Virus record (IMG/VR): IMGVR_UViG_2778261575_000007
Span: 1 to 19,849 of that record
Origin: a virus
Taxonomy: Duplodnaviria; Heunggongvirae; Uroviricota; Caudoviricetes
Strand: one strand, 5' to 3'
DNA: 19,849 nt
Shown: piece after piece, positions 9,001 through 15,000 of the stretch
How positions within the stretch are numbered: position 1 is the stretch's first letter
Layout of the letters: each line of letters starts with the position of its first letter
Program-made: the position numbers

Positions 9001-12000
9001 CATGAAGTTTTTGTTTGGGATTCTGCTGTACCCTTCTTTTATTGGTGTTATTCTTTCTGCGTACCTGAGTATTAAAGCACTAATAGCCAGTTAATTACCA
9101 GGGCAATAAGCAATAAAGAAATTTCTATAGAAATGAGCCATCAAAAGGAACGACGATAATACGGATAATATCGATGAGAAGTACACATGGAAAAGCTGAC
9201 CATCAACAGAAATTACGGTATGCCACAAAAATGGTACAGGAGACGCAACAGCAGGATAAAACCACATCGGCATATAAAGTGATGCCCGGTAATCAGAACG
9301 CGCAGCAGAAGCCCACAGGGGCGACACCGTGGCGGCATATGACCAAACGCCAGCGCAAAAACCGCAGGCGCGTTAACCGCCTCACTGAGTTGTGGCCTGA
9401 CTTATTCAGCCGGGAAGCACCGAAGCCGCTTAAGGTGGGGATATTCGACGACCTGATGCAGGATCTCGCCGTCAGGGGGCTGGCATTTGGGCCAGGGGCA
9501 TTACGTGCGACGCTGGCATCTTATGCGCAGTCTCCGCGCTATTACCGCGCCCTGGTTGCTGGTGGGGCGCGTTACGACCTGAAAGGCCAGCCGTGCGGCG
9601 AGGTGACACCACAGGAACAACAGGACGCAGAAACGCGGCTGATGGCGCTGAATGAGAAGCGCAAACGTCAGCGCCGGGCAGCAAAGGAGAAAACAGGCGC
9701 ATGATTCACGACAGCAAAGCGGAAGCACTGGAAGCGCGTGGTCTGTACCGGAGAGCGGCGGCGCGGTGGGCTGAGGTCATCATGCTGGCGAATGATGACA
9801 AGGCACGGGAACAGGCGGCAAAACGTCGCGCGGAATGTATCCACAAGGCAGCACGCCCACCAGCAAGGCAGGATAATTTCGGGGAGATGCGCGAAACCAT
9901 CAGCCGGGCACATGCCGGAATGGGATTACATCAGCCCAATGGTAAGGCATTCAGGAAATACCCTGGATCGAAAAATTGCAGTCAGTGACGGAGGCCGGGA
10001 TTTTTCCCGGCCCTATTGTGTTTCATTAATTGCAACATTTGTTGCTATCATTTCATTTTGTGCAATTGTTGTGGTTGTTATTATTCGGGAGAAAAATCAT
10101 GAAAGGTCACGGAGTAAAGCCAGTTTTACTTTCCCGGAGGCAGATCGAAGCCCTGCAACGCATCCAGGACGAAGAGCGTCAGAAATCTGTGCTTGGTGTG
10201 GCACCGTCGATTCATGTTATCGCCCGGCAACTGATGGATAAGGCACTTAAAGAGGTGAGACTGTGAAATTAAATATCAGAGTGGATAAACGCCAGCTATG
10301 GCAGAAAAAAGAGAACAGCGAGGCATTCAGGGCGTTGCTGGTGGAAAATCTTCAGCACCGGTTCAGTGGAGAGTTGCCTGATGCTCTAGGGAAGAAACTT
10401 GAATCCCTGACGGTGGAAATTGGCGATTATGGCTTTGTTGATGTTGAAAGCACGACTGCCAACACAGAAATCGTAAAACAGGTCGTCAATGATGTAATGA
10501 AAACCACGCTTAGCCAGCCATCCTGGCGCAACTGAATCAGTAAGGGGCGGTTATTGCCCCTTTCCTCCATACCCACAACGCATTCCCTTTCCGCATGAAA
10601 TTATTTTTTATCGTATACGCATGAGGTGAGCTACATGTTGATGAGTAAAGCCGAATACGCCAAATACAAAGGCGTAAGCCGCCAGACAGTTTACGACTGG
10701 ATCGAGAAAGGCGAAGTGATCATGTCTGGCAAAAAAATTGATGTGGAGGCGACAGAGCAGCGGAACAGCCCACCGGCACAAGGGAAAGACACCGTTTCTG
10801 AAATGTGGCCAGAAAGAACGCTGGAAATGACGTGGGGCGAGTTCTGGAAAGCAGTTAAGGCCAGAGACGGTAAAATTCCTTCGCCAGTAACGGACGATGA
10901 CATACAGCAGCGTGTGCTGTATGCAGCCGGGGAATTAGGCTGGGAAGTGCACTTTCTTGATGATGGTGCTATCTGCCTTGAGGATGATGAAGGGCAGCAT
11001 TACTTTGAAAAATACAATTTGCGAGGTAATGCCAGGCTGGCAATTCGTATGCTGCGTTGCGAACTCTGCTATGTTGCAGGTGATTATCCCGATGAACTGG
11101 AATCATGGAGTGAAACCGGGCTAAACGCCCTGGCTGAATGGGAAAAATCAGACCATCAATGACATCAAAAAGTGTCAAGTTGAGCAGCTTGCCAGGTTGA
11201 CACTTTACACTCTGAACGCGAAAAAGTGTCAACCTCGCTGTAAACCCCGCCGTTACTGGCTTTGCGCCAGATTTACCTCGTCAAAAAGCCGAAAAAATCG
11301 CGAAAAGTGTCAAGTTGCCATGCTCAGAAATGCTAAGGTTTGATAAGGTTTTTCGCGAAAAAGTGTCAAGTGTGTCAACCTGCGATATTAAGATTTATTA
11401 AGGTCTTAAGCCGGAAAGTGTCAACCAGCCCCTAAGATTTCCTAAGGCGTGATTGAACGTGCTGTAACCTTCTTGTCGCAATGTGGATGAATGACTATAG
11501 TGCTGGTAACTTTGACCGCAGAATCAGATTACTGAAGGAAGTGTGTGATGAGTTTTTTTAGTCTTTATGGGAAAGAACTATTTTCTTTTTTTATAGCGAT
11601 TTTAACATGGATACTGAATAACAGATTTAAAAGCAAGGCAAAGTTATCCTATGGTTATCAGCATGGATTTACTTTTCTTCTCAATGAACCCTTACGGAAT
11701 GCTAATGGTGAGGTAATATCTAATTCACAGTTGGTGTATACACGATCTATTATTCTTGTTAATGAAGGGCGAGAAAGTGCTACTAATATATCATTGGTTT
11801 TTAACTATAAGCCAATGCATATTAATTTTTGGCCTGTCCACCATTTTGAAGAAAATATTGAACAGGATGGTCGCTATATTATCAAGTTTGAAAACCTTGC
11901 ACCTAGTGAGTCTATTCAATGTGAAATATTATCAATAAATAGAGAAGTTCCAAGTATTCTATCGATAAGATCTAAAGAGTGTGTGGCTGAGCCAGTGAAT

Positions 12001-15000
12001 ATCGTGATGCAAAAATCGATTAGTAATATTGCCCTACGTTGCTATCAATTATTAATACTTCTTGGAACTGGCACATTAACATATTTAATTATCGTTATTC
12101 TGCAATGGTTAGTCACTAAAACGGGATAATCCATTGTATTGAACTTATTAATTGGATATGAGTGCTGATAGGAAACCTATGACCATCACCGAAGCCGATA
12201 TGCTGGAGATGATCCGCAGCATTGCCGGAATCAAACAACCAGCAAGCAAAATTAACAGGTGTTCAGCGCCTGTTTCCGTTGTGCTGCAACAGGAACACCA
12301 CCAGCGGCGGGAAAACGAAAAGGCGTACCAATGGACGAAGCCAAACAAGTTACGGCGTTAATTAGGGATGCGGGCTGGGATAGCCCGCATTTTGCTCACA
12401 GCTTGTTATAAATTTTTCCAGCGAAGTCATGAACCGCCTGAGGAATATCCGACGGCGTACCTAGCATTGTTGGCGCATCGGAAACAAAGAACATGATCGC
12501 TTCTTTGATTTCTTCGAAAGATGGGGTAGGGGTAATGCGCTTGAGATTTGAAACAGCCCGTCGGAACTCCGCCGTATCCATTGGATGCCTGCTAAACCAC
12601 GTTGGACTAGAAGCCCAACATTTTACTGCTTCTTTCACCTTAGTGTTCATCATTTTTCCTTTTGCTTATTACCATACAAAGCATGTGGAAAGAGAAGATT
12701 AACATGGAAAATATGGGGTTGGTGAGCAAATGGTACTGGTAGCCCGTCGACATCTATCAGCATGATGATGTGAGGCCGTATCAGTGGCGGAAACCGAACA
12801 GGCTGCGACGGTGAGCGGGGCGTTATAGTAAGCCAACAGCCAAGCCAAACATTAAGCCTAAGGGTAGGGCTTTTTTGTGGCTGGTGGCGTAATGCCAACA
12901 TTGTTACATGATGTTTTGAGGTATTATCTGCATGTTCGTGGTGAGGAACCACCAGAACTGATGAGCTTTTGTTTATGCATGTACTGCATGAAAACTGTCC
13001 TATAAAGTGGGGGTAGGTGTGCTGAGGAGAACATTGTGAGCTACGCCAAATTAAATTGTGTCGGGGGTGAACAAGTTTCTTGATAGGTGTCAGTAGGCAC
13101 CTATAGTTATAGGCTTCTTCAATTTTGTGTGCACAATATTTTGTATTGATTGGGGATAGGGTTGCACGCAAAATTAAAAAATGTATATTTATTAACGTGT
13201 ATTTGATGATTTTTAAATAAAATATTTCTCTATGTTTATCATAAAAGGTTTTTTATGAGCGTGGCAATAAAAACAATGACACCAATGTCATATTCTATAA
13301 AAGTTGATGCGATTAAGAAAAGATTGTCATATTTTAGTGATGTTTCTTTTTTGAGAAATTTTTATGAACACTTCCAAAAAGTAAGGGATGTCGAGGTGGG
13401 TATTGTTTCCAATTTCCCTTGGTGTTGCTATCTGGCAATGAAATGGAAGTTTTGCATGAAGGAAAAAAAGCCTGCAAAAGAAATGAGTAAAAATGATTTT
13501 ATTGATATTATCAACTTAATCTATAACTTGCAACTAGAAGCATCTAATTTAATCGTTGATGATAAAGTTATGCTAAGCCTTAGACGAATGGTGATAAATC
13601 AGTTGCTTTATCAATCAACTGATAAATTTAATGCTAATTCATTAACAAGACAGTATATTTGGTATTGCTTGAATGATGAATCATATTATAAAGATAAGTT
13701 TTTAGAATGTACTGGTTTACATTTGGAAAGCTATTACAAAATGGCATGTTATTTTACCGCTATTTCATGTATTAATCCTGATGTAGAATCAGAGGTTATT
13801 CCATTTAAACACTTGATAATAAACTTGGTTCCGATATTTGGTCCGGAACAAGTGAAAAAATTTTTGGAATTAACATGCTTAAAAATTGATGGTGTAAGAG
13901 ATTTTATTGCCCCATATAAATTGGATAAAAACATTACCGCTGAGTATTATGAAGATACACCATTCCTCAGTAAACCAATGTTTTTAGATGGCGATGGTGT
14001 AGTGATATTATGCAAAAGAATCATGAAGTCAGGGTTTGTCAACCTAGTTCCAGAATTGTTCAAGCAGGTCTATAAGGAATCTTATAAAGAAAAATTTGGT
14101 AAGACGATGGAACTTTATATTTCTCGCTTTCTTGATAAGTACAATTATAACTTTAAGACTGAAAGGGAGGTTAAGAAGATTTATAGTGATAATGCAATAA
14201 AAAATTGCAAGTCCGTAGATTTTGTTATTTCAGAGGGAGATTCAATAGTTTATATTGACTCGAAGGCAATAGAGCCTGCAAAGTTCGTTAAAACATCTAA
14301 AAATGCTCAGTTGCTAAAGGAAAGGTTGAATAAGAGTTTTATTAAAGGGATTTATCAAGGTCAGGAATGTGCTTTTAACTTAAATAAAATAGAGATGAGA
14401 AAACCATCTTCGAAAGATTCAATGTTAATTGTGGTGCATCGGGATCATCATATATCAAATGCAATGGTTGTGCAGGATTTTATTAACCCTGATTTATCAA
14501 CTGAGTTATCTGAAAAATATCATAGTATCCCCATTGATCTAAAAAGAATTTACTATATAACAATTGATGAGTTCGAATTATTACTTATGATGTGTAAACA
14601 GAAAGAACTATCTATTAATGAGTTTATTGATATGTGTGTGGAAAAAGATTCATTCCCTCATACTCAGAAGTCTAATCTAAGCATGCACATATATGAATTT
14701 GCACCAGAGGGTATTGATGATGATCAATTGATTGTAAAAGGAAGAGACTTACTGATTGATGATGTTATTGAAAATATGAAAGAGAGTGCATCAAAATGGT
14801 CTGGGAAAGTTGATATGTATCTTAAAATAAAAGATTATATTTTTAATTGGTAATTAAGCAAGGGTGTTATTATCAACACCCTTGCTCATAGTCTTACAAT
14901 ATTAAATGTTGTGTTTTTTATTTATATATTTTATTGCCCATCAATCTATTAATTCATCTCGTTGTTTGAGATAGGTTGAGCATTTGTATTTTTTTATCAA

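What the first reader, a model, noticed from the sequence alone, without database searches (positions are those of the whole stretch)
11548..12653. AT-rich 2-TM membrane protein and two convergent small genes in the cargo region
The 194-aa protein at 11548-12129 has hydrophobic helices at both termini around a soluble core, and is AT-rich like the 532-aa gene. It is followed by a small gene with a clean terminator and a convergent 85-aa gene. None has a recognisable family. Membrane-spanning effectors of this size are common in abortive-infection and superinfection-exclusion systems, so these may be further cargo modules or partners of the 532-aa protein.
Basis: inference. Interest (0 to 1): 0.5.

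Follow-up and report, generated by a model that had tools for sequence, protein, structure and literature searches.

The report
Orphan membrane gene in satellite cargo
The three genes are real, but they are three unrelated pieces at the cargo end of an E. coli phage satellite, not helpers of the neighbouring GapS1 defence gene, and the 193-aa two-helix membrane protein belongs to a widespread unnamed family whose genomic locations make it a reasonable but untested candidate for a stand-alone anti-phage gene.

Summary
There is an AT-rich 193-aa gene (11548-12129) with a TM helix at each end around a beta-sandwich, a 60-aa gene (12179-12361) ending at a hairpin, and a convergent 85-aa gene (12396-12653, minus strand). 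All three are under purifying selection, and none matches Pfam, PADLOC or NCBIfam.

The window is a PICI-like phage satellite at tRNA-Thr (thrW), and the 532-aa neighbour is GapS1, a published single-protein defence. Comparison with related islands shows three units that assort independently.

1. ORF194 is a one-gene cassette (about 11448-12178) with its own promoter-like site. It occurs with GapS1, bSEFIR, a DUF4747 pair or no other cargo. It is also the last gene of other satellites and of a P2-like Yersinia prophage, and a low-GC lone gene in many phyla (578 clusters at 50% identity).
2. ORF60 is satellite backbone, a shortened member of a small-protein family that follows TerS-like genes.
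3. ORF85 sits on a 452-bp insert bounded by a duplicated ORF60 tail. In capsid-forming PICIs it follows an AbiJ-like gene.

Partnership with GapS1 is not supported. ORF194 is a plausible new single-gene membrane Abi or exclusion candidate, but its function is inferred, not shown.

The parts
10626..11162 (+). 178-aa protein with an N-terminal HTH, TerS- or Rpp-like. It is the last large backbone gene before the accessory region (context, not part of the finding).
   Evidence: Weak matches to HTH_17 and to the PHROG 57 small-terminase family. It has no PDB sequence relative, so it is not demonstrably Rpp. It is conserved in all related satellites.
11169..11447 (.). Repeat array: six exact AAAGTGTCAA copies and three TAAGRTTTNNTAAGG copies. 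Candidate packaging or replication site. It marks the left boundary of cargo slot A.
   Evidence: 6 matches against 0.04 expected, and 3 against 0.07 expected.
11448..12178 (+). ORF194 single-gene cassette (cargo slot A).
   Evidence: It is absent from L014, L015, L051 and L052, where CCTAAGG is followed after 8 nt by the ORF60 ATG. It is present at the same point in E. coli, E. ruysiae and Citrobacter satellites.
11473..11501 (+). Sigma-70-like promoter inside the cassette (TTGTCG-17-TATAGT).
   Evidence: Both hexamers are kept in the 76%-identical Citrobacter cassette (TTGTGG-17-TATAGT). This is a consensus match only.
11548..12129 (+). ORF194: 193-aa protein with a TM helix, an Ig-like beta-sandwich and a second TM helix.
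12179..12361 (+). ORF60: small basic-tailed protein, satellite backbone, probably co-transcribed with ORF194 in this window.
   Evidence: No terminator-like structure lies between ORF194 and ORF60.
12306..12757 (.). ORF85 mini-module insert: an alternative ORF60 tail, the hairpin, ORF85 and its upstream region.
   Evidence: Present in the window, L001, L015 and L052. Absent from L004, L013, L014 and L016, where 12305 joins 12758.
12365..12393 (.). Hairpin between the convergent genes, a probable terminator for ORF60.
   Evidence: -20.9 kcal/mol on the plus strand, -17.0 on the minus strand.
12396..12653 (-). ORF85: 85-aa four-helix protein.
12758..12814 (+). Orphan 3' end of the 59-aa ORF60 allele (…QHDDVRPYQWRKPNRLRR*), left behind by the ORF85 insert.
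   Evidence: It is identical in sense to the tail of the L014 allele.
12854..12880 (+). Terminator-like site after the orphan tail. It marks the left edge of cargo slot B.
   Evidence: The fold is weak.
13255..14853 (+). GapS1 single-protein defence gene (cargo slot B).
15631..15647 (.). attR core, a repeat of the tRNA-Thr 3' end. This is the right end of the satellite.

Best explanation
The interval is a mosaic of three independent units at the att-distal accessory end of a PICI-like phage satellite integrated at thrW.

(1) ORF194 is a self-contained one-gene cassette with its own promoter-like site. It encodes a member of a widespread, unnamed protein family with an invariant architecture: an N-terminal TM helix, an Ig-like beta-sandwich of about 110 aa, and a C-terminal TM helix. 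The positive-inside rule places the beta-sandwich in the cytoplasm, tethered to the inner membrane at both ends. My best guess is that it is a stand-alone anti-phage protein. In this model the cytoplasmic beta-sandwich binds a phage component, and the paired TM helices, which carry an invariant Gly and a conserved Tyr, then oligomerise and compromise the membrane (abortive infection). Less likely, it obstructs genome entry at the inner membrane.

(2) ORF60 is not cargo. It is an internally shortened member of a small-protein family that follows TerS-like genes in several satellite types, and here it is probably read through from the ORF194 promoter.

(3) ORF85 is a small four-helix cytoplasmic protein carried on a 452-bp insert that recombined into the end of ORF60. 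Elsewhere it is the downstream gene of an AbiJ-like (HEPN) operon in capsid-forming PICIs, but here it is alone and its role is unknown.

None of the three is a component of GapS1.

Shown: the anatomy, the conservation, the independent assortment and the locations. Inferred: the topology, the defence role and the membrane mechanism.
For: Satellite identity: the element has int, AlpA, AntA, a D5-type primase, ProQ/FinO, PerC, a TerS-like HTH gene and an attR repeat of tRNA-Thr.

Module boundaries and assortment:
- ORF194 is present or absent independently of ORF85 and of the slot-B cargo, which is GapS1, bSEFIR, Old, a DUF4747 pair, a PDC-S02-like pair or nothing.
- Among 5426 complete E. coli genomes, ORF194 is in 15, ORF85 in 8, the ORF60 N-terminal part in 129, and the full window arrangement in 5.

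ORF194 is the last or near-last gene next to attR in five other element types: a Hafnia TerS satellite, a TerL-bearing satellite at fis, a satellite at xseA, the smrA-site E. coli satellite and the P2-like Yersinia phage vB_YenM_324. In IMG/VR its more distant homologues (26-48% identity) mostly lie at the edge of predicted viral regions.

Family properties:
- The profile search found 578 clusters at 50% identity, nearly all about 190 aa, with no domain fusions and no Pfam hit in any of 91 members.
- It is found in Gamma- and Betaproteobacteria, Pirellulales, Chlorobiaceae and Geobacter relatives.
- Gene GC is below the locus GC in all 29 loci examined.
- It has no conserved neighbour. PADLOC matches are concentrated in the two genes on each side (49 families among 105 proteins) compared with genes more than 4.5 kb away (9 families among 74 proteins).
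- Defence neighbours include PDC-S31, PDC-S21, PDC-S06, AbiGi and NucC.

Structure and topology: the AlphaFold2 model has pLDDT 83.6. The net charge is +3.0 just after TM1 and -0.8 on the N-tail, and 118 of 121 members have more K+R on the domain side. Conserved positions are N72, G74, N86, P89, W95, P96, R109, E121, P135, R141, G173 and Y179.

GapS1 works alone.
Confidence: 0.5

Rival explanations
1. ORF194, the small gene and ORF85 are accessory components (sensor, regulator or effector) of a multi-gene GapS1 system, which is the first reader's 'partners' idea.
For: They are adjacent to GapS1 in the window and in five E. coli genomes. ORF194 and GapS1 are both AT-rich.
Against: GapS1 with ORF60 alone occurs in L014. 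ORF194 occurs with other cargo or with none, and ORF85 occurs with Old, a PDC-S02-like pair or an AbiJ-like gene. GapS1 and its E. coli homologues protect when cloned as single genes.
Confidence: 0.03
2. ORF194 is a superinfection-exclusion protein that blocks phage genome entry at the inner membrane without killing the cell.
For: It is a small inner-membrane protein carried as a moron at the end of a temperate P2-like phage and of satellites. It has no enzymatic domain.
Against: The predicted topology puts the only sizeable domain in the cytoplasm, with periplasmic tails of 10 residues or fewer. That leaves little exposed where ejection machinery first meets the membrane. Lone chromosomal copies occur in phyla with very different phage entry routes.
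Confidence: 0.15
3. ORF194 is not an anti-phage gene. It is some other mobile accessory function, for example an orphan immunity protein against a membrane-targeting toxin or bacteriocin, or a membrane fitness factor.
For: It is a low-GC lone gene with no fixed partner, often between housekeeping genes. Orphan immunity genes have this kind of distribution (my own knowledge, not tested).
Against: It repeatedly occupies the defence-cargo end of at least five satellite or prophage backbones. Defence-family matches are locally enriched around it. No toxin-like gene is linked to it in any locus inspected.
Confidence: 0.15
4. ORF194 serves the satellite's own life cycle, for example helper interference, lysis timing or packaging.
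For: It lies directly after the TerS-like gene and its repeat array.
Against: It is present in only 15 of about 129 E. coli genomes with this backbone region. It occurs on unrelated satellite backbones, in a P2-like phage, and as lone chromosomal genes in bacteria far from Enterobacterales. It is not holin-like: the loop is 110 aa, there is no charged C-tail and no lysin neighbour.
Confidence: 0.07
5. ORF85 is a cognate partner (antitoxin or regulator) of AbiJ-like HEPN proteins, and the copy in the window is an orphan that neutralises AbiJ-like systems of competing satellites.
For: ORF85 lies 39-96 nt downstream of, and on the same strand as, an AbiJ-like gene in capsid-forming PICIs at fis in Cronobacter and E. 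coli and in IMG/VR contigs. The pairing is kept even when the AbiJ-like protein has diverged to 74% identity. ORF85 is under strong purifying selection (dN/dS 0.075). The L001 strain (K56-43-un), one of the five E. coli genomes with the full window arrangement, also carries a lone AbiJ-like gene elsewhere.
Confidence: 0.15

Closest known systems
Defence cargo at the 3' end of PICIs, and in hotspots of P2-like phages and P4-like satellites (PMC11364771 for PICI 5' and 3' ends and the pri-adjacent region; PMC9122126 for P2/P4 hotspots)
   Same: ORF194 occupies a variable slot at the att-distal end of integrase-bearing satellites and of a P2-like prophage. It sits next to slots that hold known systems (GapS1, bSEFIR, Old, AbiJ-like). 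It is low in GC and is swapped as a cassette.
   Different: The protein matches no family in PADLOC, NCBIfam or Pfam, and no activity has been shown. It also occurs as a lone chromosomal gene far outside Enterobacterales.
Transmembrane effectors of signalling defence systems, such as CBASS Cap15 (two TM helices plus a beta-barrel) and Pycsar PycTM (my own knowledge)
   Same: It is a small protein that combines TM helices with a compact all-beta soluble domain and no enzymatic domain. This makes it a plausible 'ligand or partner binding leads to membrane damage' device.
   Different: One TM helix lies on each side of the domain instead of two at the N-terminus. No cyclase or other signal-generating gene is next to it in any locus. 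There is no sequence or specific fold match.
Prophage-encoded inner-membrane superinfection-exclusion proteins such as T4 Imm, P22 SieA and HK97 gp15 (my own knowledge)
   Same: It is a small membrane protein encoded as a moron at the end of temperate elements.
   Different: No detectable homology. The predicted large cytoplasmic beta-sandwich is not a feature of those proteins. Function is untested.
GapS1 (GAPS1), the neighbouring 532-aa gene
   Same: Same accessory region, and similar AT-richness.
   Different: GapS1 is a single-protein PD-(D/E)xK system triggered by capsid protein. ORF194, ORF60 and ORF85 assort independently of it.
AbiJ / Abi_C (HEPN) abortive-infection proteins
   Same: ORF85 is the conserved downstream neighbour of an AbiJ-like gene in capsid-forming PICIs.
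   Different: ORF85 itself has no HEPN or Abi_C domain, and the window has no AbiJ-like gene next to it.

Membership tests
GapS1 system (as extra components) | Single PD-(D/E)xK protein matching NF047931 that is sufficient for defence | tested here: not met
   Only the 532-aa protein matches NF047931 (E 6e-132). ORF194, ORF60 and ORF85 have no match. GapS1 is found without ORF194 and ORF85 (L014). The single-protein activity was published.
Any catalogued anti-phage family (PADLOC-DB 2.0, NCBIfam 20.0 antiphage models) | A significant HMM match | tested here: not met
   No hits at E up to 0.1 for ORF194, ORF60 or ORF85.
PICI-like phage satellite (the host element) | Integrase at one end beside a tRNA att site with an attR repeat; AlpA-type regulator; primase/replicase; small terminase or Rpp-like packaging gene; no full virion module; about 10-16 kb | tested here: met
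   int at 1-1215, AlpA at 2287-2484, D5-type primase at 6131-7945, TerS-like HTH at 10626-11162, attR at about 15631-15647. Helper dependence was not testable.
PICI Rpp (redirecting phage packaging protein), for the 178-aa neighbour | Sequence relationship to the solved RppA/RppC proteins | tested here: not met
   phmmer against all PDB sequences gave no hit at E up to 0.01. Only weak HTH and TerS-family matches were found.
CBASS Cap15-type or Pycsar TM effectors | Adjacent CD-NTase or cyclase gene; N-terminal TM pair followed by a nucleotide-binding beta-barrel | tested here: not met
   No conserved neighbour of any kind among 105 flanking proteins. The TM helices flank the domain.
Holins | Small TM protein with a charged C-terminal tail, encoded next to an endolysin | tested here: not met
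   A 110-aa beta-sandwich lies between the helices, the C-tail is 4-5 residues with about one charge, and no lysin is next to it in any locus.
Superinfection-exclusion proteins | Blocks genome entry of a superinfecting phage without cell death (a functional definition) | not testable with these tools
   This requires phage challenge and DNA-entry assays.
CARDB-like or other named Ig-like domain families | A Pfam match or a specific structural match | tested here: inconclusive
AbiJ / Abi_C two-gene module (for ORF85) | An AbiJ-like HEPN gene immediately upstream on the same strand | tested here: not met
   In the window, similarity to the cf-PICI module starts at the ORF85 start codon (12358-12650 only). 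No AbiJ-like sequence lies upstream.

The most novel reading that the evidence does not exclude
ORF194 founds a new, phylogenetically very broad family (Enterobacterales to Planctomycetes and Chlorobi) of single-protein anti-phage defences. In this reading a cytoplasmic Ig-like sensor strung between two TM helices detects a phage protein and converts binding directly into membrane failure, and the gene is spread as a one-gene cassette by satellites and prophages. A second, weaker reading is that ORF85 is an orphan anti-AbiJ factor used in conflicts between satellites.
Probability: 0.35. Interest if true: 0.6.

Novelty: new member of a known kind. Interest (0 to 1): 0.4.

Why it matters
If ORF194 protects against phages, it would add a very compact single-gene membrane system of 193 aa with no enzymatic domain to the defence catalogue. 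It would also annotate several hundred protein clusters that are currently 'hypothetical'. The work further gives a base-resolved map of two cargo slots and a recombination scar in a thrW PICI-like satellite. That map shows how defence genes are shuffled between satellites, and it prevents GapS1 neighbours from being misread as part of that system. As it stands this is a candidate supported by association only, in a kind of location already known to be rich in such candidates.

Tried and rejected
- Pfam, PADLOC, PHROGs and NCBIfam scans of the three proteins gave nothing usable.
- A Pfam scan of 91 diverse ORF194 relatives and of 10 longer variants found no domain and no informative fusions. 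The extra length is low-complexity linker or a miscalled start.
- PDB sequence searches with the ORF194 profile and with the 178-aa HTH protein gave no hits.
- tblastn against phage genomes found nothing for ORF60 or ORF85, and one P2-like Yersinia phage for ORF194.
- An Rfam scan of 10500-15800 found no RNA family.
- A literature search by RefSeq accession and by keywords found no description of these proteins.
- The broad 91-sequence alignment was too divergent for the search for related loci, so a 21-sequence alignment was used instead.
- The idea that AbiJ-like genes always need ORF85 was rejected, because a 67%-identical AbiJ-like gene stands alone in L086.
- The mechanical 173-aa ORF at 12650-13171 (minus strand) was rejected as a gene. 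It is unannotated, spans the orphan ORF60 tail and a terminator, and has no hits.

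
Full report
**What the window is.** The best match is the region downstream of proA and tRNA-Thr (thrW) in several E. coli chromosomes. The element has these parts:
- an integrase (1-1215)
- AlpA (2287-2484) and AntA (2562-3362)
- a D5-type primase (6131-7945)
- ProQ/FinO (9174-9704) and PerC (9701-9988)
- a 178-aa protein with an N-terminal HTH that weakly matches small-terminase and excisionase families (10626-11162)

A repeat of the tRNA-Thr 3' end lies at about 15631-15647 and marks attR. After it comes a second, decayed island with a remnant integrase, a MarR gene and vat. 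So the window holds a PICI-like phage satellite of about 16 kb, and the finding lies in its att-distal accessory region. PICIs are known to carry immune systems at their 5' or 3' ends (PMC11364771).

**The observation.** All three ORFs exist as described.
- ORF194 starts at the ATG at 11548 and encodes 193 aa. Its GC is 32.3% and its GC3 is 25%, against 44.4% for the whole window.
- The small gene is best read as 12179-12361 (60 aa), not the 69-aa TTG ORF. RefSeq and all homologues start at that ATG.
- A hairpin at 12365-12393 (-20.9 kcal/mol) separates the small gene from the convergent 85-aa gene at 12396-12653.
- None of the three hits Pfam, PADLOC or NCBIfam. The two small proteins have only weak PHROG hits of unknown function.
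- Each is under purifying selection. dN/dS is 0.10-0.21 for ORF194, 0.075 for ORF85 against Cronobacter, and 0.24-0.34 for ORF60.

**The neighbour.** The 532-aa protein is GapS1 (NF047931, E 6e-132; annotated gapS1 in RefSeq). The paper that defined it shows a single PD-(D/E)xK protein triggered by a capsid protein. Its E. coli homologues protect when expressed alone.

**Module map.** I compared window 10000-15500 by BLASTN with related satellites and read the junctions directly. The order is as follows.

| Window coordinates | Unit | Notes |
|---|---|---|
| up to 11447 | Backbone | Ends in a repeat array: six exact AAAGTGTCAA and three TAAGRTTTNNTAAGG |
| about 11448-12178 | Slot A | ORF194 only |
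| 12173-12305 | ORF60 N-terminal part | Present in all related satellites |
| 12306-12757 | ORF85 insert (452 bp) | Alternative ORF60 tail, hairpin, ORF85 |
| 12758-12814 | Orphan ORF60 tail | '…QHDDVRPYQWRKPNRLRR*', the tail of the commoner 59-aa allele |
| 12854-12880 | Weak terminator-like site | Left edge of slot B |
| about 12889-15343 | Slot B | GapS1 here |
| about 15344-15647 | Conserved right end and attR | |

In satellites with an empty slot A (L014, L015, L051, L052) the sequence reads CCTAAGGTGTAAAYC followed by the ORF60 ATG.

The units combine freely:

| Locus | ORF194 | ORF85 | Slot-B cargo |
|---|---|---|---|
| Window / L001 | yes | yes | GapS1 |
| L014 | no | no | GapS1 |
| L013 | yes | no | DUF4747 pair |
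| L051 | no | no | DUF4747 pair |
| L016, L002 | yes | no | bSEFIR |
| L004-L008 | yes | no | none (a satellite at smrA) |
| L015 | no | yes | PDC-S02-like pair |
| L052 | no | yes | Old |

Among 5426 complete E. coli genomes, the ORF60 N-terminal part is in 129, ORF194 in 15, ORF85 in 8, and the full window arrangement in 5. This rules out an obligate partnership among the three, or with GapS1.

**ORF194.** The word-index homologue search found only Enterobacterales relatives, all about 193 aa and 49-98% identical. A profile search of 1.84 billion cluster representatives found 578 clusters at E up to 1e-3, and 338 at E up to 1e-10. Nearly all are about 190 aa and match end to end. None of 91 diverse members, and none of 10 longer variants, has any Pfam domain.

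Charge distribution is lopsided. The net charge is +3.0 just after TM1 and +1.5 just before TM2, but -0.8 on the N-tail and +0.4 on the C-tail. In 118 of 121 members there is more K+R on the domain side. By the positive-inside rule the beta-sandwich should be cytoplasmic. This is an inference.

**ORF194 contexts.** In Enterobacterales it is the last or near-last gene before attR in several unrelated backbones:
- the thrW and smrA satellites and their Citrobacter relative
- a Hafnia satellite with a Terminase_2 TerS, inserted next to fis
- a TerL-bearing satellite next to fis
- a satellite next to xseA that also carries PDC-S31
- a locus with an integrase and PDC-S21

It is also gp38 of the P2-like Yersinia phage vB_YenM_324, at the end opposite the integrase. 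In IMG/VR its more distant homologues (26-48% identity) mostly lie at the very edge of predicted viral regions. One Serratia copy is a lone gene between HPP and mug/rpoD.

In one-genome-per-species contigs it appears in Pseudomonas, Xanthomonadales, Burkholderiales, Methylococcales, Pirellulales, Chlorobiaceae and a Geobacter relative. Its GC is below the locus GC in all 29 loci examined.

There is no conserved neighbour. The two genes on each side gave matches to 49 PADLOC families among 105 proteins, including PDC-S06, mad3, AbiGi, PDC-S31, NucC and pVip. Genes more than 4.5 kb away gave 9 families among 74 proteins. This control is rough because the tool reports families and not proteins.

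The cassette carries a promoter-like TTGTCG-17-TATAGT site whose hexamers survive in the 76%-identical Citrobacter cassette. No terminator-like fold lies between ORF194 and ORF60, so ORF60 is probably co-transcribed with it here.

**ORF60.** It aligns at both ends with three proteins: an 86-aa protein in the same position in Citrobacter, a 94-aa protein after a DUF1441 TerS-like gene, and a 91-aa protein after an annotated small terminase. These sit in two other satellite types. The 60-aa form lacks about 26-34 internal residues. It is therefore a backbone gene linked to the packaging module, and it is not cargo. Its function is unknown.

**ORF85.** It forms a small Enterobacteriaceae family, 70-99% identical. 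AlphaFold2 gives a four-helix bundle (pLDDT 82.8) with no specific structural relative.

In capsid-forming PICIs inserted next to fis in Cronobacter, in E. coli SCU-125 and in IMG/VR contigs, it lies just downstream of an AbiJ-like (Abi_C) gene on the same strand. This holds even where the AbiJ-like protein has diverged to 74% identity. A truncated Enterobacter contig shows the same cf-PICI backbone but ends inside ORF85.

In the window, similarity to that module covers only 12358-12650, so the AbiJ-like gene is absent. A 67%-identical AbiJ-like gene stands alone in another satellite of strain K56-43-un, one of the five complete E. coli genomes that carry the full window arrangement. The pairing is therefore not obligatory.

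**Interpretation.** The anatomy, the independent assortment and the locations are shown. The role of ORF194 is inferred. Its distribution is what one expects of a stand-alone defence or exclusion gene:
- a single-gene cassette in cargo slots of satellites and prophages
- a foreign base composition
- a patchy distribution across phyla
- local enrichment of defence genes
- no partner gene

With no enzymatic domain, two TM helices and a probably cytoplasmic binding-type domain, I favour a sensor-plus-membrane-effector (abortive infection) model over a block to entry. I rate an anti-phage role at about 0.45-0.5. Alternatives are an orphan immunity or membrane fitness gene, or a function in the satellite's own life cycle.

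The family is absent from PADLOC 2023 and from the NCBIfam 2026 antiphage models. I found no paper that describes it.

**Verdict.** The 'cargo' reading is right for ORF194, partly right for ORF85 and wrong for ORF60. The 'partner of the 532-aa protein' reading is not supported. I rate the finding as a new member of a known kind, namely candidate single-gene defence cargo in a satellite hotspot, with moderate interest.

Noticed in passing
window 11169-11447: There is a dense repeat array directly after the TerS-like HTH gene. It has six exact AAAGTGTCAA copies (five forward, one reverse; 0.04 expected) and three TAAGRTTTNNTAAGG copies. It is a candidate packaging (cosB- or pac-like) or replication site, and the ORF194 cassette is inserted exactly after the last TAAGG.
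   Followed up: partly
window 12758-12814: This is an orphan 3' end of the 59-aa ORF60 allele (…QHDDVRPYQWRKPNRLRR*). It shows that the ORF85 module entered by recombination within ORF60, so the ORF60 tail acts as a crossover point for cargo exchange.
   Followed up: yes
window 13255-14853: The 532-aa AT-rich gene is GapS1 (NF047931, E 6e-132), a published single-protein PD-(D/E)xK defence triggered by capsid protein.
   Followed up: yes
window 3355-4893 (+): A 512-aa ORF after AntA has no Pfam domain and only a weak partial match to an induced-prophage record. It is absent from the otherwise similar island L001, so it may be 5'-side cargo.
   Followed up: partly
window 8132-8713 (-) and 8759-9094 (+): Two ORFs with no family fill a lower-GC gap of about 1.2 kb between the primase and ProQ/FinO. 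This is the pri-adjacent accessory region where Tai systems were found in PICIs (PMC11364771). There is no phage tblastn hit.
   Followed up: partly
window 15631-19849: Two islands sit in tandem at thrW. After the satellite's attR come a truncated integrase (Arm-DNA-bind only, 15801-16139), a MarR-family gene (16584-17108, minus strand) and the vat autotransporter toxin gene (17234 to the end of the window, minus strand).
   Followed up: partly
L059 3019-3791; L086 3735-4564; L002 10633-10893: An 86-94-aa small protein (N-terminus MT(I)TEA(D/E)(M/L)L…, C-terminus …Y.WKKP..(L/P)RR) directly follows three unrelated TerS-like genes in different satellite types. ORF60 is a shortened member. The family may be a packaging-module accessory protein.
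   Followed up: partly
L058 6999-8057; L046 7143-8255; L081-L085: Capsid-forming PICIs inserted next to fis carry a two-gene unit, an AbiJ-like (Abi_C/HEPN) gene followed by ORF85, reading inward from attR. This may be a two-component variant of AbiJ.
   Followed up: partly
L086 (NZ_CP053079.1 4334061-4344520): Strain K56-43-un, which also carries the full window arrangement at thrW, holds a satellite embedded in a prophage major-capsid gene. That satellite carries a lone AbiJ-like gene as its last gene.
   Followed up: no
L013 6292-7784; L051 6569-8061: A DUF4747 protein plus a 199-aa partner occupies slot B in several satellites. It has no PADLOC 2023 match, so it is another candidate defence pair.
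   Followed up: no
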